From positions 1-12,860 of IMG/VR virus record IMGVR_UViG_2737471837_000008: 12,860 nt of DNA; one strand, 5' to 3'. Origin of the DNA: a virus (taxonomy: Duplodnaviria; Heunggongvirae; Uroviricota; Caudoviricetes). The notes beneath the pieces were generated by a model, which did not search any database, was not told where the DNA came from, and saw only the letters and a program-made list of their open reading frames with translations. Of the stretch, positions 1,020 to 10,574 are shown one piece after another (position 1 is the stretch's first letter; every line of letters starts with the position of its first letter). Both the position numbers and the translations under genes were made by a program.

Positions 1020-2057
1020 TCATGAAATAACGTTGTGTGCTGTCTGCCCCTGTGACTTCAGCTTGTTTTCAGCATATGCCTCGAACACCGTCACCCACGC
1101 ATCACCATCGGCAGTAAGATACGCTCCGATGTGGCGAACGGACTTAACCAGAAATTTTCCGGTGAACGTGGTCGAGTTTTTGGAGATAACACTGGGCGCT
1201 GTAGTATTAGTCATGAGGATCGACGATGCTCCTGAAAACATTCCCTGAGGCAGTTCGATCACATCACTACACCGTATATCTCCCCGCAACGGGCATTTAA
1301 AACTGACGGTAAAAGGCTTTATCCATGTTGGTTGGCCTATTAATTCATAAGGTTCAATTTTCTTTATTTTCCCCAGTTCCAGTGATGAATTATCATAAAG
1401 ACGAATGCGATCTGGTAACATAATAATGCCTACCCCGCTATATCCTTTCTGACGAATAATCGCTTTCGATAAACTTCGCACAGCCATAGCCAGCGAACCT
1501 ATATCAAGGTAAACCAGTGGAATATCTTCAGGTAAAACCAGGTTATCACTGACCGAGGATTCAATAATTTTATCTGGATACGCCTGTTTCAAAACACGCG
1601 ATAACACGTCTCCTAATTTTTCTCCCTGAAATCCAGTACCGCTAAATCTCACAGGAGAACCATCTTCTTTTTTTCTATAAACGGGGTTAACAACCAGATT
1701 CAACGTCTGGTTGGTGCCAATCCAGTTAGCATAAGCCATATAGACTTCACCATAGATAATCTCTCCCTGTTGATCTGGATTAGCCAAAGGAAGTCCAGAA
1801 GCAAAGCCAGCAGTTAAGCTAACAATGCATCCGTTGAGATTTACACTTTGCTGTAACATCTCAATAGGTAAGCCATAAATTGTCAGCATCGTTCCGGAAC
1901 CAACAACATCCAGGCCGGTTACTTCAAAGTCAAATTCAACATGCAACCCACATCCTGGTGTTTCACTGGTATCAAAAGGCCCAATGGGGTTCCCATTGCT
2001 ATCCACTGGCGGCTTACCAGTTTTAGGGTTAATAATTTCCAGTCGGTAATAACGCAT
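1020..2057 (-). CDS. hypothetical protein, 345 aa, beta-rich, no recognised family
   Basis: Long ORF with protein-like composition; ATG at 2055-2057 overlaps the upstream stop (TAATG); 9-nt gap to the downstream winged-HTH gene. Confidence 0.7.
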   Translation of the reverse strand: MRYYRLEIINPKTGKPPVDSNGNPIGPFDTSETPGCGLHVEFDFEVTGLDVVGSGTMLTIYGLPIEMLQQSVNLNGCIVSLTAGFASGLPLANPDQQGEIIYGEVYMAYANWIGTNQTLNLVVNPVYRKKEDGSPVRFSGTGFQGEKLGDVLSRVLKQAYPDKIIESSVSDNLVLPEDIPLVYLDIGSLAMAVRSLSKAIIRQKGYSGVGIIMLPDRIRLYDNSSLELGKIKKIEPYELIGQPTWIKPFTVSFKCPLRGDIRCSDVIELPQGMFSGASSILMTNTTAPSVISKNSTTFTGKFLVKSVRHIGAYLTADGDAWVTVFEAYAENKLKSQGQTAHNVIS

Positions 2058-2392
2058 TAGTAAACCTCGAACTGATTAGTACTTTCACGAAAAATGAGCT
2101 TTCCCGGAGCAAATGGAAGTGCCAGATTGATGTCGTAACCATCAGGGGAAGCAATCAGAGGCGTGTATACAATGACCTCACCAGAACTGTTTTTCAGTTC
2201 CAGATAATAGCGATTCGCATACAGATTGAACGGAACACGGGCAAATAAAATTTCCCCTCCCATCCTGAATTTAAATTTGAAAGGTTTTTCCCCATCAGGT
2301 TTGAATGGTATAAAAGTATTCATACTCCAGACTCCTGCACAATTTGATTCTTGATACCTGACAATGATTGCCACTAAATTATTTAGTGGCAT
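2057..2392 (-). CDS. hypothetical protein, 111 aa (or 88 aa from internal ATG)
   Basis: ATG at 2390-2392, 7 nt after the stop of the 223-aa gene; alternative start at MNTFIPF with AGGAG upstream. Beta-rich; no recognised family. Confidence 0.55.
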   Translation of the reverse strand: MPLNNLVAIIVRYQESNCAGVWSMNTFIPFKPDGEKPFKFKFRMGGEILFARVPFNLYANRYYLELKNSSGEVIVYTPLIASPDGYDINLALPFAPGKLIFRESTNQFEVY

Positions 2393-5357: not shown

Positions 5358-5635
5358 GTGAACAGTCGTGAATAGTTAGTGAACAGTTTTTCAATAACTG
5401 TTCACCATGTTTTTTAGTTTAAAATCATATGGTTATTTTGTTTCAGTGAACAGTTGAACAGTTACCCCCTATAGAATTTAATTTGCAGTGAAAAATGATT
5501 CACCGTTACAAGTTACAATGCGTTTTAAAAGTTTTAGCCGAAACTGTTCACGCCGTTCACTTCGTCGATGAATCCAGTAATGACGCGGCTTTTAGAGGTG
5601 AACAGTAGTGTTCAGTAGTGTTCACAACTGTTCAC
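5358..5635. repeat. replication-origin-like iteron cluster (GTGAACAG / CTGTTCAC) around AT-rich spacers
   Basis: GTGAACAG at 5358-5365, 5379-5386, 5446-5453, 5598-5605; variants at 5368-5375 and 5454-5461; CTGTTCAC at 5398-5405, 5544-5551, 5628-5635; tandem TAGTGTTCA at 5606-5625. AT-rich 5406-5445 and 5461-5490. Starts at the primase/helicase stop codon. Confidence 0.7.
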
Positions 5636-7404
5636 TTTTCATGGATTTTTGGCACAGCGGGTAACCATTCATTGGCACTATCAGCCAACTCCATGTTGTA
5701 GCGCATTCCGACATTGGTCTTTGCCTTCTTGTACTCAGCCCCATATTCTTTCATCACTTTTGGAAAATCTTTGCCAAAATTCGTTAGATTTAATGGCTTA
5801 TCGAAACCATAAGCATCCATATATGCAAGATATGCATGGTAGAGATAAATGCGAGGGGCTCTTGGATATATATTCAGGTTTCCCATGAACATTCCTACAG
5901 CTTCACCAAGTTCGACAATATGGTTACAAAAAGCATATAGCGGATCAGTATGGCGTTTTACTTCCATTGCTTCTTCACCATCACGTTGTTCGAGCAGTAA
6001 TGTTCTTGCTTTTTCGGGATCTGAAAAATTTACCAACAGCCTACGGACTATTACCGGAATTTCTGCTGCGATTTTTTTTGGTAAACATGTGTCCTTGTTT
6101 TCTTCCGCTATCGGATTATTGAACTGAAAAATAACCCTACGGCGTGAAATACCTCCCGCTCTTTCTGTAAAAACCATCGGTTTATTATTTGTTATCAAAA
6201 CAACTGAGCGTAAGACGGTGGTGTATCTTTTTTCATATTTCGGATTAATTTGCAGAGGATCCCCACCTGTTATAGCTTTAATACCATTACCTTCGCCAAA
6301 ATATTTAGGTTGGTCCGGTAAAATAATCAGACTTTTACCAACCAGTTGCTCACGTCCACCAGCATCATCTAACGCTTTCATATCACTGCCTGCGGTGTTC
6401 TGCTCACCCGCCAACATTCTGGCAATTTGAGTAAACATACTTTTACCACTTCCACCTTCGCCAGTTGCTTCAATGAATAATTGCCAGTCGTAGCGATTAG
6501 CCAAAACCATAAACAGAGCAGCACATATCCGCTTCATCTTTGATGAATCGTATCCTGCTGCATGTGACAGCCAACGATGAAAATGGGGCGCATGGTCATG
6601 AATATTTTCACCAAGCGCAGGTGGCGTATAATAAATTCCATTATGCGAAGTGATCCAGTGCTCTGGTGAATGAGGTAAAAATCTACCACTTGTTATGTCA
6701 TAAACTCCATTTTCAAAAGGTATTATGGTGTCACGCTGTTCTCTCATTACGGGTACAGATATTTTTAAAGCATCAACCGCGTTACTAATTGCCCGCTTAC
6801 TGAAATTTGTCTTATTTTTTTCGTAAATTGATACCATTTTACGACTCAACTCCATATCAGATATTTTTTTCCACACTCCAGAACAGTATGCATAAGCAAA
6901 ATTGTTACCAGGGTGAACAGCTATTTCCTCAAAGCATTCAGCCAAAAGTGAAGCCCGCTCGTTATCCGCCATTCTGGAAAGAGATATTTTGTGTTTTTTC
7001 TCAGTCCTTACTGACAGAATATCCCCGCGCTCTGCCTGTTCGCGGATCCGTTGCAGGTAGTCGCGCCAGTTCTCCGGCTCCCGGTCGGTGATACCTTTGT
7101 ATAATTTCGCATCCTGTACGCCAGCCAGCGCCAGCTTTTCAGCGATAGCATTGATCTGGATTGGTTCGATCTCCCCAGCGAGATAGACACGCGCAAAGCG
7201 GCGTTCATCGTCGACAATGCGGATATTCGCCAGGTCTGCCAGTTGCTTCGGCCCCAGGTAAACAGGTGGCACGTTATCGCCGTGTTTTCGTCCTTCGCTT
7301 TCAATCCAGTGTTGAGCATGGGCATAAGCGTCCGTCCCGGCAAAAATGATTACCTCGGTGAATTTATCCTTCGGCTGATATTTTAAATTCGGTGCGTTTT
7401 TCAC
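5632..7404 (-). CDS. P4-family primase/helicase-type replication protein (D5-like SF3 helicase domain)
   Basis: 590 aa with Walker A GEGGSGKS (GX4GKS) and the overall pattern of P4-alpha/D5-type C-terminal helicases. GTG start at 7402-7404 overlaps the upstream stop (GTGA); first ATG is about 143 codons in. Confidence 0.85.
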   Translation of the reverse strand: MKNAPNLKYQPKDKFTEVIIFAGTDAYAHAQHWIESEGRKHGDNVPPVYLGPKQLADLANIRIVDDERRFARVYLAGEIEPIQINAIAEKLALAGVQDAKLYKGITDREPENWRDYLQRIREQAERGDILSVRTEKKHKISLSRMADNERASLLAECFEEIAVHPGNNFAYAYCSGVWKKISDMELSRKMVSIYEKNKTNFSKRAISNAVDALKISVPVMREQRDTIIPFENGVYDITSGRFLPHSPEHWITSHNGIYYTPPALGENIHDHAPHFHRWLSHAAGYDSSKMKRICAALFMVLANRYDWQLFIEATGEGGSGKSMFTQIARMLAGEQNTAGSDMKALDDAGGREQLVGKSLIILPDQPKYFGEGNGIKAITGGDPLQINPKYEKRYTTVLRSVVLITNNKPMVFTERAGGISRRRVIFQFNNPIAEENKDTCLPKKIAAEIPVIVRRLLVNFSDPEKARTLLLEQRDGEEAMEVKRHTDPLYAFCNHIVELGEAVGMFMGNLNIYPRAPRIYLYHAYLAYMDAYGFDKPLNLTNFGKDFPKVMKEYGAEYKKAKTNVGMRYNMELADSANEWLPAVPKIHEK

Positions 7405-7691
7405 TTCTTACCTCCCGCAACCAACATTGCCCGGATTTTTTTAATATTCGTGGCTGCACGTCTCGCCACTGCCTGTTGTTTGTTTTCCACCAGAATAAAA
7501 TCACGATCAAACTGACGGCGCGGCATTACGCAGTCATATTCGTAAACCTCACGGCGGTAGGTGATATTGCCTGGCGTAACGTGACGAATAACCACTCGCC
7601 CCCCACGTCTGGTGTCGCGGTAAATATCTCCGTGTCTGATTTCAGGCCGAGAGAGACCGCTGGCAGTAAAGCCAGAATTTTTCTTTTTCAT
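7401..7691 (-). CDS. hypothetical basic protein, 96 aa, translationally coupled to the primase/helicase
   Basis: ATG at 7689-7691 with AGGAAA upstream; stop overlaps the helicase GTG start. No recognised family. Confidence 0.6.
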   Translation of the reverse strand: MKKKNSGFTASGLSRPEIRHGDIYRDTRRGGRVVIRHVTPGNITYRREVYEYDCVMPRRQFDRDFILVENKQQAVARRAATNIKKIRAMLVAGGKK

Positions 7692-7695
7692 GGTT

Positions 7696-7896
7696 TTATT
7701 TTCCTGTCAGCAGTTCCGGTTTTATTTCCGCACGAATACAGAGTTCAGAAAAAAATTCAGGAGAACCAACAATCTCATTACTTTTCAGTCGGCATTGTGA
7801 TTTCACTTTCCCTTTATCCAGGTAAACCAGTACGCGTCCGGTGAAATCATCTGGCACACTCAGGTTAACTGTCATTGTTGCAGGCTGATTACCCAT
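7696..7896 (-). CDS. small protein, 66 aa, single copy of an FTG-x-LV...NG-V-S...L module
   Basis: PDDFTGRVLVYLDKGKVKSQCRL...SPEFFSELCIRAEIKP aligns with both halves of the neighbouring 121-aa protein. Start overlaps the upstream stop by 8 nt. Confidence 0.6.
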   Translation of the reverse strand: MGNQPATMTVNLSVPDDFTGRVLVYLDKGKVKSQCRLKSNEIVGSPEFFSELCIRAEIKPELLTGK

Positions 7897-8254
7897 GATT
7901 CACCCCCTGAATGACCTGATAACCGCAACTGGTCAGCAACTCGATAAATTCCGGCAGTGTTCCGAAACAGCAATCATCTCGCAGCCGTTCTCGGGATACT
8001 TCAACGCCGTTTTCGTAGTGACTCACCATGCGTCCGGTAAAATGCAGATCATCATCGTGATGGCTCGTTAACGGCTTAATCAGTCGCGCACGTTCTGCCA
8101 GCTCCAGCAATGCTTCAACGCTTCCGGCAATTGCACCATCCGGCAGGTGATAATTACTTGCCACGCGTCCATTCTCCACGTTAACCAGTAGCTGCCCGGT
8201 GAATTTCTCATCAAACTGAATGCTGTTAAGGTCAGAAATTGACAGGTTATGCAT
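7889..8254 (-). CDS. small protein, 121 aa, tandem duplication of the same ~50-aa module
   Basis: DEKFTGQLLVNVENGRVASNYHL...SVEALLELAERARLIKP and DLHFTGRMVSHYENGVEVSRERL...LPEFIELLTSCGYQV. ATG at 8252-8254 preceded by AGGAGGT; overlaps the upstream gene as ATGCATAA. Confidence 0.65.
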   Translation of the reverse strand: MHNLSISDLNSIQFDEKFTGQLLVNVENGRVASNYHLPDGAIAGSVEALLELAERARLIKPLTSHHDDDLHFTGRMVSHYENGVEVSRERLRDDCCFGTLPEFIELLTSCGYQVIQGVNHG

Positions 8255-8450
8255 GGTGCACCTCCTGGCGAATACGGGCGGCGAATACCATCACGCAACC
8301 AGCCGGGGATTGCTGGCGCGCTTCCTGTTCGCTGGTGGCCTCGATGTGAATCACGCGCGGTTGTGCCGTACTCAGGGCGATAAAACGCCAGATGTATTTA
8401 TTCAGGTTGTGCGAGTCCCGCCCTTGCGGGTGTGTGGTATGATTTAACAT
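8247..8450 (-). CDS. hypothetical protein, 67 aa (MLNHTTHPQGRDSHNLNKYIWRF...)
   Basis: Internal ATG at 8448-8450 with GAGG 6 nt upstream; this is the C-terminal in-frame part of the 403-aa ORF-track entry. First gene of the leftward replication operon. Confidence 0.5.
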   Translation of the reverse strand: MLNHTTHPQGRDSHNLNKYIWRFIALSTAQPRVIHIEATSEQEARQQSPAGCVMVFAARIRQEVHHA

Positions 8451-8539
8451 AGCTACCTCGATACTTTCGCTATCGTTGGTGGTTAGAAGCCCCGTTACTG
8501 CTCCAACAGTGCGGGGTTTCGTCATTTTATGACTGATAA

Positions 8540-8640
8540 AAATCAAGTGTCGGACACATGTTATTTTATCGGTGTGGGACACGTCAAGCATTGCATTAAA
8601 CTTTTTTCTCGCTATCATTGTCGGACACCAAACCAATCGG
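8540..8640. promoter_or_regulatory. divergent promoter/operator region with repeated TGTC-G-GACA palindromes
   Basis: TGTCGGACAC at 8548-8557 and 8619-8628, variant TGTGGGACAC at 8573-8582, inverted variant at 8696-8704. Candidate rightward promoter TTGCAT(8591-8596)-16 nt-TATCAT(8613-8618); candidate leftward promoter TTGACG(rc 8582-8587)-18 nt-TAACAT(rc 8558-8563). Confidence 0.45.
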
Positions 8641-8649
8641 AAATCAGAA

Positions 8650-8829
8650 ATGGCAACGAAATCAGTAAATGCAAAATCGAAAAGAATAGATGCACGTGTC
8701 CCACTCCATATCGTTGATGCCATGGATAAGGTCAAAGAAGACGGCGAAAGTACAGGGCAGTTTGTAACAGCCGCATTAGAAGGCGAGATCAAACGCCGCC
8801 AGCGTCGCAAGGCCAAAGAGCAGGAGTAA
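8650..8829 (+). CDS. ribbon-helix-helix (CopG/Arc-like) DNA-binding protein, 59 aa
   Basis: MATKSVNAKSKRIDARVPLHIVDAMDKVKEDGESTGQFVTAALEGEIKRRQ fits a strand-helixA-helixB RHH layout with a basic tail. Only convincing plus-strand gene; opposite-strand frame through it reads as Ser/Leu/Cys-rich junk. Confidence 0.6.
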   Translation: MATKSVNAKSKRIDARVPLHIVDAMDKVKEDGESTGQFVTAALEGEIKRRQRRKAKEQE

Positions 8830-8886
8830 CCATCACTAGCGCCGTGGAGTGATGAACTGTGGCGCACAGGGTTACAGGTATATACG

Positions 8887-9063
8887 ATGACTGACAAATC
8901 ATTAAAGAAATTATCCTCATCCAGGAAAAAACAACGCAAAAATGCGGTAAGCGAACAAGAACAGGAAAGATTCGCACCTTGTTCGTTTGCTCTTGAGAAA
9001 TTCCTTAAAGAGCACAGGAAAAAGCTCTCGTTGCAAACCTTGGAACGAACCAAATCTGACTGA
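8887..9063 (+). CDS. possible small basic protein, 58 aa (MTDKSLKKLSSSRKKQRKNAVSEQEQERF...)
   Basis: ATG at 8887-8889, stop TGA at 9061-9063, downstream of the RHH gene on the same strand. Weak SD; below the ORF-track cutoff. Confidence 0.3.
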   Translation: MTDKSLKKLSSSRKKQRKNAVSEQEQERFAPCSFALEKFLKEHRKKLSLQTLERTKSD

Positions 9064-9458
9064 TCACATTGCCCACCAGCCGCAAATGTGGCATTGTTGG
9101 TGATGCGTTCAAGTATGTAGCTTTTCCACTGGCGGCTCTCTGCGGTCGCCTTTGTTTTATCCAGAACGAAATCAGACATCAGATTGATCAGCACCTGGCG
9201 ACCTGACAAAATCGCATCAGTCGCGCCACCAGCAAAATTTTTTGCTTTCCGGACAGCGTGGCCAACGGCATTTTGCAGCAAAATATTCTGCATTTCTGGC
9301 GTGCTGTAGTAACGGTGATCAGTGCCTTCACATTGAACGAACTTGTCGCTAAAATTCACCCACATAGCAAACATCGCGGTGCTGTAGGTAATTCGTTCAC
9401 AAAGGCGCTCCGGCAACGGGGCGCTTTCTCTTTTTGTAACGGTCAGAGCGTTACACAT
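9064..9458 (-). CDS. hypothetical protein; convincing only over roughly the first 130 codons, 3' end undefined
   Basis: ATG at 9456-9458 overlaps the antirepressor stop by 8 nt. Protein-like composition to about 9064, then junk-like sequence antisense to the plus-strand genes, with no stop until 8247. Confidence 0.4.
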
Positions 9459-10299
9459 GGCTGTTTTCCTCCATGCGACGGGCTAACCAACGCTGCGAAA
9501 GACGAATTAATTCAGCCTTCCGCTGGTGGTAGTCCTGGCCTAACTCAATCAGCGTGATATTGCTCTGCTCAAGGTAAGAAAGGTGCTCAAGCTGCAACGT
9601 GCTCATGTGGTCGCGTGGTTCGCCTGTGATGCCGTTCGCCTGCGCCCACTGTTTTGCAGTCATGCCACCCAGCACGATACGCGCCAGCATATTGGCTTCC
9701 GTGGTGTAGTGGTGCTGGAGTGTGTTTTTACCCAGTTCAGCCCGGTACGCCTCCAGCGCGGCGCACATCGGCTTAAAGTAGCTGGCAACGGTGATACGGG
9801 CTTTCAGTTCCCTGCGTAACGCTGCGGAACGCACTGGCGCTACCTTGTGTAGCTCCTCCTCGCATTTGATGAAGTACTGACGAACGGCGCGGCCCTGTTC
9901 GGTGCGTTCGACCATCGCCAGTTCTTTCGCCATGTTCGTGGAGATCAAATACTCTTCACTGCGACGATCACCGCCGCGCTTTGTTGTCCAATCAGAATCA
10001 AACTGTTCAATATTTACACTTTGGTTCCCCCGTTTCGGGGAATCAAAGTACAAATTTTCTACAACTTCAAAATCCACGCCATTTTTAAATCCGTACTCAT
10101 CAATGCGTCCTTTAATCCAGGTTGTGAAATCACGCTTCACACCCAGCGCCTTATGCAACGCTCTGGCGCTAACAATATTGGTTTCACGCCCGCCAATAAC
10201 ACCGGAAATAACCGGGATAATATCGCCGAAATTTTGCAGATTCTGGTTTTCAGGCCGAACGAAGCCCTGCCCCTGTACGGGCGTTTTTGGAAATTTCAT
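9451..10299 (-). CDS. AntA/AntB-family phage antirepressor-like protein (282 aa)
   Basis: N-terminal IPVISGVIGGRETNIVSARALHKALGVKRDFTTWIKGRIDEYGFKNGVDFEV matches the AntA antirepressor domain pattern. ATG at 10297-10299 with AGGAG 6 nt upstream. Confidence 0.75.
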   Translation of the reverse strand: MKFPKTPVQGQGFVRPENQNLQNFGDIIPVISGVIGGRETNIVSARALHKALGVKRDFTTWIKGRIDEYGFKNGVDFEVVENLYFDSPKRGNQSVNIEQFDSDWTTKRGGDRRSEEYLISTNMAKELAMVERTEQGRAVRQYFIKCEEELHKVAPVRSAALRRELKARITVASYFKPMCAALEAYRAELGKNTLQHHYTTEANMLARIVLGGMTAKQWAQANGITGEPRDHMSTLQLEHLSYLEQSNITLIELGQDYHQRKAELIRLSQRWLARRMEENSHV

Positions 10300-10376
10300 A
10301 AAAACTCCTGCTATCGAATTAAGTTACTTTTATTTGCTGGTGGATAGCTGGGGGCAATAGCCCCGTAGCCATTTAA

Positions 10377-10574
10377 TCAGGTAGCTGTTCCGCGTGATTC
10401 CGCAATACGCTGATTAATCCACTCGTCAATTTCACTCTCAACGAAAGCAATAGCTCGCGAGCCAATTTTAACTGATGCAGGAAATTTACCTTGCCCCATA
10501 AGGCGATAAATCCATGCCTTGCTATATCCAGTTCTACGCTGAACTTCCGTTAAACGAATAAGAGAGTTTGCCAT
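10377..10574 (-). CDS. alpA: AlpA-family phage transcriptional regulator (65 aa)
   Basis: MANSLIRLTEVQRRTGYSKAWIYRLMGQGKFPASVKIGSRAIAFVESEIDEWINQR matches the AlpA pattern including the EIDEW motif. ATG at 10572-10574 with AAGGTG upstream. Confidence 0.9.
   Translation of the reverse strand: MANSLIRLTEVQRRTGYSKAWIYRLMGQGKFPASVKIGSRAIAFVESEIDEWINQRIAESRGTAT

What the first reader, a model, noticed from the sequence alone, without database searches (positions are those of the whole stretch)
8455..9063. Plus-strand RHH regulator with palindromic operator candidates embedded in a minus-strand island
The only convincing plus-strand gene is a 59-aa RHH protein. The intergenic region has two identical TGTCGGACAC palindromes 71 bp apart, a one-mismatch third copy, and an inverted copy inside the RHH coding region. 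Back-to-back candidate promoters place these sites on the -10/+1 of both the rightward RHH promoter and the leftward promoter of the replication operon. This reads as a repressor switch gating replication, in addition to AlpA. An RHH antitoxin is a less likely alternative, since no toxin-like partner follows.
Basis: partly seen in the sequence, partly recalled or inferred. Interest (0 to 1): 0.55.

Follow-up and report, generated by a model that had tools for sequence, protein, structure and literature searches.

The report
Hidden repressor switch in phage-satellite island
A tiny, uncharacterised DNA-binding protein (YlcI family) sits head-to-head with the replication genes of an E. coli phage-satellite island. 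Its three binding sites cover both promoters, which makes it a good candidate for the master repressor that Gram-negative satellites were thought to lack.

Summary

Three copies of GTG-TCGGA-CAC lie at 8547-8557, 8572-8582 and 8618-8628. Two bracket the -10 of the leftward promoter of the icd-like/primase operon. The third abuts the -10 of the ylcI promoter.

The main evidence is comparative. In 79 related loci from many Enterobacterales genera the promoter frame is conserved. The 5-bp core of all three sites changes together, and it tracks residues 12 and 14 of the protein's beta-strand. These are the positions that read bases in Arc. In E. ruysiae, operators plus the N-terminal half of ylcI are swapped as one cassette between near-identical flanks.

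The model island EcCICFT073 carries the same module. I found no description of it in the papers searched, which call Gram-negative PICIs unidirectional and their repressor "unclear".

- The "inverted copy" in the coding region is a by-product of the conserved Arg-Val-Pro codons.
- Most sites in the family are asymmetric, not palindromes.
- A second plus-strand gene (ORF58, 8887-9063) exists, but it is Escherichia-specific and dispensable.

Repression itself, and how AlpA or a helper phage relieves it, remain inferred.

The parts
8650..8829 (+). ylcI-like gene: 59-aa ribbon-helix-helix protein (beta-strand about residues 11-17, helix 19-28, helix 35-58)
8547..8557 (.). Operator site A (GTGTCGGACAC), immediately downstream of the -10 of the leftward promoter, over the expected transcription start
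   Evidence: An equivalent site lies at about -100 to -112 from the ATG in related loci, always with that locus's own core.
8572..8582 (.). Operator site B (GTGTGGGACAC), in the spacer of the leftward promoter, abutting its -35
   Evidence: The most strictly positioned site (-77/-78), followed by the conserved (G/T)TCAA, which is TTGA(C/A) on the minus strand.
8618..8628 (.). Operator site C (TTGTCGGACAC), abutting the -10 of the ylcI promoter, over its expected start
   Evidence: At -32 in 76 of 77 loci, preceded by the conserved GTATACT.
8558..8587 (-). Leftward promoter of the icd-like/primase operon (-35 TTGACG 8587-8582, 18-nt spacer, -10 TAACAT 8563-8558)
   Evidence: Scan hit. Equivalent hits in L005, L024 and CFT073. 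The -35 TTGA[CAG][GA] sits at the same offset in 59 of 79 loci.
8591..8618 (+). Rightward ylcI promoter (weak -35 TTGCAT 8591-8596, 16-nt spacer, -10 TATCAT 8613-8618)
   Evidence: Read from the sequence. The -10 is conserved as TATACT across loci. Detected by the scan in L024 as TTGATT-16-TATACT. The -35 is poorly conserved.
8247..8450 (-). First gene of the regulated leftward operon: 67-aa Icd-like protein, followed by small ORFs, DUF4222 and the D5/P4-type primase (5632-7404)
   Evidence: NF033153 phage_ICD_like, E 6e-20. Primase domains. Synteny ylcI / icd-like / primase across genera.
8486..8520 (-). Conserved hairpin in the 5' leader of the leftward transcript
   Evidence: Fold z-score -2.3. 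Conserved across 20 loci, with both-side changes in 6 of 12 pairs. Role unknown.
8887..9063 (+). ORF58: small basic protein downstream of ylcI. Escherichia-specific accessory gene, not part of the conserved switch.
   Evidence: Homologue in CFT073. 39 clusters, all Escherichia, with in-frame indels. phrog_21027. Absent from other genera and from E. ruysiae L031.
9131..9160 (+). Terminator-like hairpin with a T-run that would end the ylcI-ORF58 transcript. A second, stronger one lies at 9402-9437.
   Evidence: The 9402-9427 hairpin is conserved in CFT073.
8694..8707 (.). Judged not to be an operator.
   Evidence: It overlaps the codons for R16-V17-P18. It is present only in the window and L003, and absent from L002 and L010 of the same class and from all other classes.

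Best explanation
The 59-aa YlcI-family protein is a ribbon-helix-helix repressor. It most likely acts as a dimer that inserts a two-stranded beta-sheet into the major groove. It recognises three 11-bp sites of the form GTG-N5-CAC (core TCGGA here) in the 199-bp region between its own gene and the icd-like gene.

Sites A and B flank the -10 of the leftward promoter, with B in the spacer and A over the start. Occupancy should therefore shut off the operon that carries the icd-like gene, DUF4222/RgdR and the replicative primase, keeping the island silent. Site C lies directly after the -10 of the ylcI promoter and should give negative autoregulation.

Specificity is set mainly by beta-strand residues 12 and 14 (Arg and Asp here). 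The invariant Arg16 probably reads the invariant GTG/CAC flanks. At least a dozen protein/operator specificities exist and are exchanged between islands as a cassette, like phage immunity regions.

Shown here: the fold, the sites, their positions relative to conserved promoter elements, the protein-DNA co-variation and the cassette exchange.

Inferred: binding itself, the sign of regulation, and the inducing signal. Relief of repression must connect to AlpA, because published work shows that AlpA over-expression is enough for replication of EcCICFT073, which carries this module. Possible routes are AlpA-driven leftward transcription running antisense through ylcI into the operon, or an AlpA-dependent or helper-encoded anti-repressor.
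For: Fold:
- AF2 pLDDT 89, with an extended strand followed by two helices.
- hhalign places YlcI R12/D14/R16 on Arc Q9/N11/R13, which are Arc's base-contacting residues (established knowledge). Positions 13, 15 and 17 are hydrophobic, and the G32/S34 turn is conserved.

Sites:
- 67 of 78 loci carry at least 3 copies of a locus-specific 9-mer at about -101 (or -111), -76 and -31. Shuffles reach this 3 times in 200.
- Sites B and C of the same locus differ at 1 or fewer of 9 positions in 65 of 77 loci.

Co-variation:
- The 5-nt cores differ by 0.32 on average within a residue-12/14 class and by 3.63 between classes.
- After collapsing to 37 non-redundant combinations, 0 of 5000 label permutations reach the observed value.

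Conserved frame:
- Only the 5 core positions vary inside aagtG.....CAc.TCAA ... GTATACTG.....CAC.
- The leftward -35 is at the same offset in 59 of 79 loci.
- Promoter scan hits are in the same place in the window, L005, L024 and CFT073.

The sites follow YlcI and not its neighbours:
- The Icd-like proteins of the window and CFT073 are almost identical, yet YlcI and the operators differ.
- Window and L031 are 93-96% identical on both sides but show no DNA similarity across 8393-8734, which holds the operators and the N-terminal half of ylcI.
- One operator class occurs with AlpA types of 35-78% identity, or with no AlpA hit.

Context:
- The synteny alpA ... ylcI / icd-like ... primase is conserved across genera.
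- The same module is in EcCICFT073.
Against: - No experiment shows binding or repression.
- The rightward -35 is weak and poorly conserved.
- Published work on EcCICFT073 explains induction through the activator AlpA alone. AlpA over-expression triggers replication even though ylcI is present (PMC6092414). So YlcI is not an insurmountable block, and the operon may also be reached by read-through.
- In 6-10 of 77 loci the upstream region is rearranged and sites A and B are missing.
- Site B lies about 48 bp upstream of the ylcI start, so it could also activate that promoter. The sign of autoregulation is not settled.
- The tendency of co-resident islands to carry different classes is not significant: 1 of 29 pairs share a class against 3.1 expected, P = 0.17.
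- Part of the co-variation statistic reflects shared descent. The concerted change of three separate sites and the cassette swap are the phylogeny-independent parts.
Confidence: 0.72

Rival explanations
1. YlcI binds the three sites but acts as an activator or a dual regulator, for example by stimulating its own promoter from site B in the way lambda CI does at OR2, or by being needed for expression of the leftward operon. In this reading it is not a silencer of replication.
For: Site B is centred about 48 bp upstream of the predicted ylcI start, a position compatible with activation (coordinates). The ylcI -35 is weak, as is typical of activator-dependent promoters.
Against: Sites A and B sit inside the core of the leftward promoter (spacer and start), and site C sits over the ylcI start. 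These are positions at which bound proteins normally occlude RNA polymerase (established knowledge).
Confidence: 0.1
2. ylcI and ORF58 form a type II toxin-antitoxin pair. The RHH antitoxin autoregulates its own operon, and the palindromes are its auto-operator.
Against: ORF58 has no homologue next to ylcI in any of 79 loci outside E. coli and E. albertii. It is cleanly absent from E. ruysiae L031, whose flanks are otherwise 93-96% identical. The three-site architecture persists without it. ORF58 hits no Pfam or NCBIfam family. Its low-confidence model is a helical hairpin, not a RelE-like sheet. Two of the three sites lie in the other promoter.
Confidence: 0.04
3. The repeats are bound by another factor (AlpA, the Icd-like protein that PHROGs label 'transcriptional repressor', a helper-phage protein or a host protein), and YlcI has a different job.
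For: phrog_6196 and phrog_1743 label the Icd-like family as transcriptional repressor. AlpA is a known activator of PICI genes (PMC6092414).
Against: The operator core follows YlcI residues 12 and 14 and not the neighbours. Near-identical Icd-like proteins go with different cores. One core class goes with AlpA of 35-78% identity or with none. A cassette limited to the operators and the N-terminal half of ylcI is swapped between conserved flanks.
Confidence: 0.04
4. The region is part of the island's packaging site (cos/cosB-like repeats) and YlcI is a packaging accessory. This was prompted by K-12 ylcI and ynfO lying beside cos and the small-terminase homologues.
For: K-12 ylcI is divergent from nohD with a lambda-like cos between them. 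GGGCGGCGA at 8276-8284 resembles lambda cosN.
Against: The cosN-like match has 3 mismatches and is at chance level: 8 matches against 7.4 expected. K-12 ylcI lacks the three-site arrangement. The sites coincide with conserved promoter hexamers. The published PICI cosB is read by Rpp-TerS, not by an RHH protein (PMC6739421).
Confidence: 0.02

Closest known systems
Phage P22 immI repressors Mnt and Arc (ribbon-helix-helix)
   Different: No significant sequence similarity (hhalign probability 6%). There are three separate 11-bp sites 25 and 46 bp apart (centre to centre) in place of one 17-21-bp operator bound by a tetramer. The controlled operon carries icd-like and primase genes, not ant.
Omega repressor of plasmid pSM19035 (RHH binding repeated short units in direct or inverted orientation)
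   Different: Omega binds contiguous 7-bp heptads cooperatively. YlcI sites are 11 bp long and spaced 22-46 bp apart. There is no sequence relationship.
Stl / Rpr master repressors of Gram-positive PICIs (SaPIs)
   Same: Same position and logic: a regulator transcribed divergently from the excision/replication operon of a phage satellite, placed to keep it silent until a helper phage arrives.
   Different: As far as I know, Stl/Rpr are larger helix-turn-helix proteins inactivated by helper proteins. YlcI is a 59-aa RHH protein with no known inducer. Gram-negative PICIs have so far been described as unidirectional, AlpA-activated and without an identified repressor (PMC6092414).
E. coli K-12 YlcI (DLP12) and YnfO (Qin), DUF3950
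   Same: Same NCBIfam family (NF041551) and a similar RHH-like pattern (RNIRFP ... GSGNFS).
   Different: The K-12 genes lie beside cos and nohD in lambdoid prophages and show no three-site operator. Function is unknown, with nothing found in the literature search. The satellite subfamily (MATKSVNAKS...) has no tblastn hit in 50,697 phage records.
P4 CI RNA / P1 C4 RNA immunity (c4-icd-ant)
   Same: They occupy the equivalent 'dynamic zone' between alpA and the replication genes of P4-like and PICI elements, and control an operon that begins with an icd-type gene (PMC10111431).
   Different: They are RNA repressors. No C4 or IsrK match was found in this window at E up to 1. Here a protein repressor appears to fill that place.

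Membership tests
Ribbon-helix-helix (Arc/MetJ/CopG) superfamily | Strand-helix-helix fold of about 45 residues | tested here: met
Ribbon-helix-helix (Arc/MetJ/CopG) superfamily | N-terminal strand with alternating polar (DNA-facing) and hydrophobic (core) residues, and a Gly-x-Ser/Thr turn before helix B | tested here: met
   Positions 12, 14 and 16 are polar and 13, 15 and 17 hydrophobic in 36 aligned homologues. G32 is nearly invariant, and E33 and S34 are invariant.
Ribbon-helix-helix (Arc/MetJ/CopG) superfamily | Significant sequence or profile match to a known RHH family | tested here: not met
   No Pfam family at E up to 0.1. No PDB sequence match. hhalign against Arc gives probability 6%. 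Membership therefore rests on fold and pattern.
Ribbon-helix-helix (Arc/MetJ/CopG) superfamily | Dimer with an intermolecular beta-sheet that binds DNA specifically | not testable with these tools
   Only a monomer could be modelled. Specific binding is inferred from protein/operator co-variation.
YlcI/YnfO family (NCBIfam NF041551) | HMM score above the curated cutoff | tested here: met
   58.7 bits against a cutoff of 30, E 4e-16. RefSeq annotates the gene the same way.
Pfam DUF3950 (the Pfam family of K-12 YlcI) | Pfam HMM match | tested here: not met
   No Pfam hit at E up to 0.1.
Type II toxin-antitoxin module | Antitoxin always paired with a toxin gene in the same operon | tested here: not met
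   ORF58 is confined to Escherichia, absent beside ylcI in the other genera and deleted in L031.
Type II toxin-antitoxin module | Partner belongs to a known toxin family or fold | tested here: not met
   No Pfam or NCBIfam hit. The only PHROG match has unknown function. The low-confidence model is a helical hairpin.
PICI master repressor (functional class, Stl/Rpr-like) | Transcribed divergently from the replication/excision operon, with operators in the divergent region | tested here: met
   Gene order and strands. Three sites overlap both promoters.
PICI master repressor (functional class, Stl/Rpr-like) | Loss of the repressor gives constitutive island replication, and a helper-phage product relieves repression | not testable with these tools
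   No experimental data. The literature searches found no study of this gene.
P4 CI / P1 C4 RNA immunity | C4 or IsrK-type RNA upstream of icd | tested here: not met
   The Rfam scan of the whole window at E up to 1 gives only two unrelated weak hits.
Lambda-type cos site | cosN sequence with flanking repeated terminase-binding elements | tested here: not met
   The best cosN-like match has 3 mismatches, at chance frequency.

The most novel reading that the evidence does not exclude
YlcI-type RHH proteins are the missing master repressors of Gram-negative PICIs, including the model island EcCICFT073. These satellites would then have the same divergent repressor/replication-operon layout as SaPIs, not a purely unidirectional, AlpA-activated one. 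Their immunity would come in a dozen or more interchangeable specificities, set largely by two beta-strand residues that read a 5-bp core. Induction would require AlpA-driven antisense transcription through ylcI, or an anti-repressor, to flip the switch.
Probability: 0.4. Interest if true: 0.75.

Novelty: new member of a known kind. Interest (0 to 1): 0.62.

Why it matters
[quoted passage not shown] Induction is attributed to the activator AlpA, and the helper signal is unknown.

This small gene gives that question a concrete, testable candidate. It is present in EcCICFT073 itself, apparently added only in later RefSeq annotation, and in loci from more than 25 genera.

It would also:
- assign a function to the uncharacterised YlcI/YnfO (DUF3950-related) family;
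- provide a natural set of at least 12 matched RHH-protein/operator pairs that differ mainly at two residues and five base pairs, useful for studying RHH recognition and for building orthogonal repressors;
- explain how several related islands in one genome could be controlled independently.

Tried and rejected
1. cos-site idea. GGGCGGCGA at 8276 resembles lambda cosN, and K-12 ylcI lies beside cos. Rejected because the match is at chance level and the K-12 locus lacks the three sites.

2. RNA immunity (C4/IsrK), as reported for some PICIs. No Rfam hit.

3. RgdR. The PICI paper says it is encoded by all E. coli PICIs, so I checked whether it is YlcI. It is a 99-aa protein with RGD at residues 20-22 (PMC3378721). 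That corresponds to the DUF4222 protein at 7401-7691, not to YlcI.

5. Toxin-antitoxin reading. ORF58 is real but dispensable.

6. Fourth operator in the coding region. It is explained by the Arg-Val-Pro codons.

7. Heteroimmunity of co-resident islands. The trend is in the expected direction but not significant, P = 0.17.

8. AlpA read-through. No minus-strand terminator is predicted between antA and icd in the window, but a terminator-like site follows alpA in Xenorhabdus L005. The read-through route therefore stays a hypothesis.

9. tblastn of YlcI against 50,697 phage records found nothing.

Full report
**Where the window comes from.** The window is 100% identical to E. coli 08-00022 chromosome NZ_CP013662.1. 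RefSeq annotation and my domain scans show a phage-satellite island of the PICI type. All of the following genes are on the minus strand:
- tyrosine integrase;
- an AlpA-type regulator (10377-10574);
- an AntA antirepressor (9451-10299);
- an Icd-like protein (8247-8450);
- small ORFs and a DUF4222 protein;
- a D5/P4-type primase (5632-7404);
- ProQ/FinO and PerC proteins;
- DUF2213 and capsid-like proteins.

Only two small genes run the other way: the 59-aa ORF at 8650-8829 and a 58-aa ORF at 8887-9063.

**The observation.** TGTCGGACAC is at 8548-8557 and 8619-8628, 71 bp apart, with a one-mismatch copy at 8573-8582.
- In the whole window these are the only matches with up to one mismatch: 4 hits (one site counts on both strands) against 0.55 expected, and 2 of 200 shuffles reach 4.
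- The first copy is the perfect 11-bp palindrome GTGTC-G-GACAC (8547-8557).
- A 14-nt stretch inside the coding region (8694-8707) is 93% complementary to 8571-8584.
- A leftward promoter-like site has its -35 TTGACG at 8587-8582 and its -10 TAACAT at 8563-8558.

**The protein.**
- It has no Pfam match but belongs to NCBIfam YlcI/YnfO (E 4e-16), a family with no known function. A literature search for YlcI, YnfO and DUF3950 found nothing functional.
- An AlphaFold model built on 36 homologues is confident (pLDDT 89). It shows an extended segment 11-18 followed by helices 19-28 and 35-58.
- Foldseek found nothing.
- In the alignment, positions 12, 14 and 16 are polar and 13, 15 and 17 hydrophobic. 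G32 is nearly invariant, and E33 and S34 before helix B are invariant.
- hhalign puts R12/D14/R16 on Arc Q9/N11/R13, which are the residues that contact bases in the Arc-operator complex (established knowledge).

The RHH assignment therefore rests on fold and pattern, not on significant sequence similarity.

**Comparative evidence.** This is the core of the case.
- A scan of one genome per species found 79 loci encoding relatives, in Escherichia, Pectobacterium, Yersinia, Xenorhabdus, Serratia, Proteus, Morganella, Dickeya, Hafnia, Kluyvera, Klebsiella, Enterobacter and others.
- Gene order is conserved. alpA lies downstream and convergent. ylcI is followed, about 200-225 bp away and divergent, by an icd-like gene or another small gene, and then by a primase.
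- Stacking the 125 bp upstream of each ylcI start shows a conserved frame, aagtG.....CAc.TCAA ... T-rich ... GTATACTG.....CAC. Only the five central bases of each GTG-N5-CAC unit vary.
- An unbiased search for the most repeated 9-mer in each upstream region found at least three copies (up to one mismatch) in 67 of 78 loci, at about -101 (or -111), -76 and -31 from the ATG. Shuffled sequences reach three copies 3 times in 200.
- Within a locus, sites B and C differ at no more than one of nine positions in 65 of 77 loci.

**Co-variation with the protein.** Between loci the core changes completely, and it changes with beta-strand residues 12 and 14:

| Residues 12, 14 | Core |
|---|---|
| R, D | TC(G/C)GA |
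| K, E | TCAGC |
| M, T | AAATA |
| Q, N | AATCG |
| Q, S | AACAC |
| Q, V | (A/C)ATGC |
| S, T | TCTTA |
| A/S, K | TGGCC |
| K, S | GCACC |
| K, Q | GA(T/C/G)TC-like |
| K, H | TGTTC |
| T, A | TTGAA |

- Mean core distance is 0.32 within a class and 3.63 between classes.
- With redundancy collapsed to 37 combinations, none of 5000 label permutations reaches the observed association.
- Some of that statistic reflects common descent. The concerted change of three physically separate sites inside an otherwise conserved frame does not.

**The sites follow YlcI, not its neighbours.**
- The Icd-like proteins of this window and of EcCICFT073 are almost identical. Yet CFT073 YlcI has KSQALKARVP, and its sites are GTGTGGCCCAC (twice) and CTGTCCCCCAC.
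- An E. ruysiae island (L031) is 93-96% identical to the window over 7022-8393 and 9184-10532. It has no detectable DNA similarity over 8393-8734, the stretch that holds the icd 5' end, the leader, the three sites and the N-terminal half of ylcI. It belongs to the M,T/AAATA class.
- That is an immunity-type cassette exchange whose boundaries enclose exactly the recognition strand and its targets.
- One operator class also occurs with AlpA proteins of 35-78% identity to the window's, or with none nearby.

**Anatomy relative to promoters.**
- On the minus strand the conserved TCAA next to site B reads TTGA(C/A/G), at the same offset in 59 of 79 loci. A TAnnnT hexamer lies 16-18 nt further on.
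- The promoter scan finds this promoter independently in the window, Xenorhabdus L005, Pectobacterium L024 and CFT073.
- Site B therefore fills the spacer next to the -35. Site A follows the -10 and covers the expected start.
- The conserved GTATACT before site C is the -10 of the ylcI promoter (TATCAT in the window). Site C covers that start. The -35 of this promoter is weak and not conserved.
- These are positions from which bound proteins normally exclude RNA polymerase. The most likely reading is repression of the replication operon through A and B, and negative autoregulation through C.
- Site A is 22-25 bp or about 35 bp from B, and B is 45-46 bp from C. The steps of roughly 10 bp suggest that helical phasing matters, but I did not test this.

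1. The coding-region copy falls on the codons for R16-V17-P18 (CGT GTC CCA C). It resembles an operator only in this R,D class, and only in two of its four members. No other class has a coding-region copy of its own operator.
2. Most family sites are asymmetric and occur in either orientation. Site A is inverted relative to B and C in the M,T, S,T, Q,V and K,H classes.
3. ORF58 is a real gene. CFT073 has a 57-aa homologue in the same place. 39 protein clusters, all from Escherichia, share the core ERFAPC(A/S)F(A/V/I)LEK(F/Y)LKE with in-frame indels. It is absent from all other genera and from L031, where window 8828-9184 collapses to two bases. So it is an accessory gene, not a partner needed for the switch, and a toxin-antitoxin reading is unlikely. 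Its structure prediction is a low-confidence helical hairpin.

**Relation to published work.**
- It shows that AlpA activates island genes, that AlpA over-expression is enough for EcCICFT073 replication, and that helper phages induce alpA (PMC6092414).
- EcCICFT073 carries the ylcI/icd-like pair between alpA and the replication genes. Both genes have late RefSeq locus tags, which suggests they were missing from the original annotation.
- None of the papers found on EcCICFT073, EcCIEDL933, EcCIMP1 or helper-embedded PICIs mentions this gene.
- A later survey places Bro-N proteins and C4/IsrK immunity RNAs in this zone (PMC10111431). This window has no such RNA.
- RgdR, said to be encoded by all E. 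coli PICIs, is the DUF4222 protein next to the primase, not YlcI (PMC3378721).
- The family is small: 96 clusters at 50% identity with E up to 1e-3 among 1.84 billion representatives. It has no tblastn hit in 50,697 phage records.
- K-12 ylcI, beside cos and nohD, lacks the three-site arrangement.

**What remains open.**
- Binding, the sign of regulation and the inducing signal are all inferred.
- Because AlpA alone can induce EcCICFT073, YlcI repression must be bypassed or relieved downstream of AlpA.
- In the window no minus-strand terminator is predicted between antA and icd, so alpA/antA transcripts could run antisense through ylcI into the operon. That would both bypass the repressed promoter and interfere with repressor synthesis.
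- A terminator-like site follows alpA in a Xenorhabdus locus, so this route is a hypothesis only.
- An anti-repressor (AntA, ORF58 or a helper protein) is an alternative.

**Verdict.** The finding is real. Its interpretation is supported by strong comparative evidence. In kind it is an ordinary RHH repressor/operator switch. It matters because of where it sits and because of the natural series of matched specificities it reveals.

Noticed in passing
window 8887-9063 (+): ORF58 is a conserved, very basic 57-72-aa protein found only in Escherichia, always just downstream of ylcI. Its core is ERFAPC(A/S)F.LEK(F/Y)LKE. It is cleanly absent from an otherwise 93-96% identical E. ruysiae island. Function unknown.
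   Followed up: yes
window 8247-9458 (-), and RefSeq CDS CP48_RS32910 (window 8247-8723): A stop-free 403-codon frame runs antisense through ylcI and ORF58. PGAP uses part of it to extend the Icd-like protein to 158 aa, overlapping ylcI. Homologues such as the 66-aa protein in CFT073 start at MLNHTTH (8450), so the extension looks like an annotation artefact.
   Followed up: partly
window 8486-8520 (-) and 8456-8475 (-); alignment A3: The 5' leader of the leftward operon holds a hairpin (GCCCCG...CGGGGC type) followed by CUCUAACCA. Both are conserved across genera, and 6 of 12 pairs show changes on both sides. A second small hairpin lies next to the ribosome-binding site. This could be a regulatory leader. 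No Rfam family matches.
   Followed up: partly
window 7401-7691 (-): The DUF4222 protein upstream of the primase corresponds to RgdR, the published PICI-encoded regulator of LEE and motility (99 aa, RGD at residues 20-22). This copy has R-H-G-D at residues 19-22.
   Followed up: partly
window 9402-9437 (+); L082 8016-8043: A strong plus-strand terminator hairpin (11-12 bp stem plus T-run) between ORF58 and antA is conserved in CFT073. It overlaps the start of a possible minus-strand ORF (9458 downwards) that has no family match.
   Followed up: no
window 8276-8287 (+): GGGCGGCGAATA inside the icd-like gene resembles lambda cosN (9 contiguous matches), but it is not above chance in the window. 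The island's real packaging site was not located.
   Followed up: partly
L001 15933-23301 (just beyond the window's right end in NZ_CP013662.1): A second tyrosine integrase, followed by a major capsid protein and small hypothetical genes, lies immediately next to this island's integrase. This suggests two satellite-like elements in tandem.
   Followed up: no
window 1020-2392 (-): The 345-aa capsid-like gene and its 111-aa neighbour share about 81% DNA identity with parts of Actinobacillus phage vB_Apl-pPE4 and Escherichia phage Rac-SA53. These are the only phage-database matches of the whole window.
   Followed up: no
loci L016/L033/L037/L061 (Xenorhabdus innexi), L018/L040/L051/L060 (X. mauleonii) and others: Genomes with several ylcI islands nearly always carry different specificity classes: 1 of 29 pairs share a class against 3.1 expected. 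This fits heteroimmunity but is not significant (P = 0.17).
   Followed up: yes
loci L008, L017, L021, L023, L078, L009: In a few loci the region upstream of ylcI is rearranged. Only site C remains (or sites B and C), and sites A and B with the leftward promoter are missing. These are possibly decayed or recombined islands.
   Followed up: no
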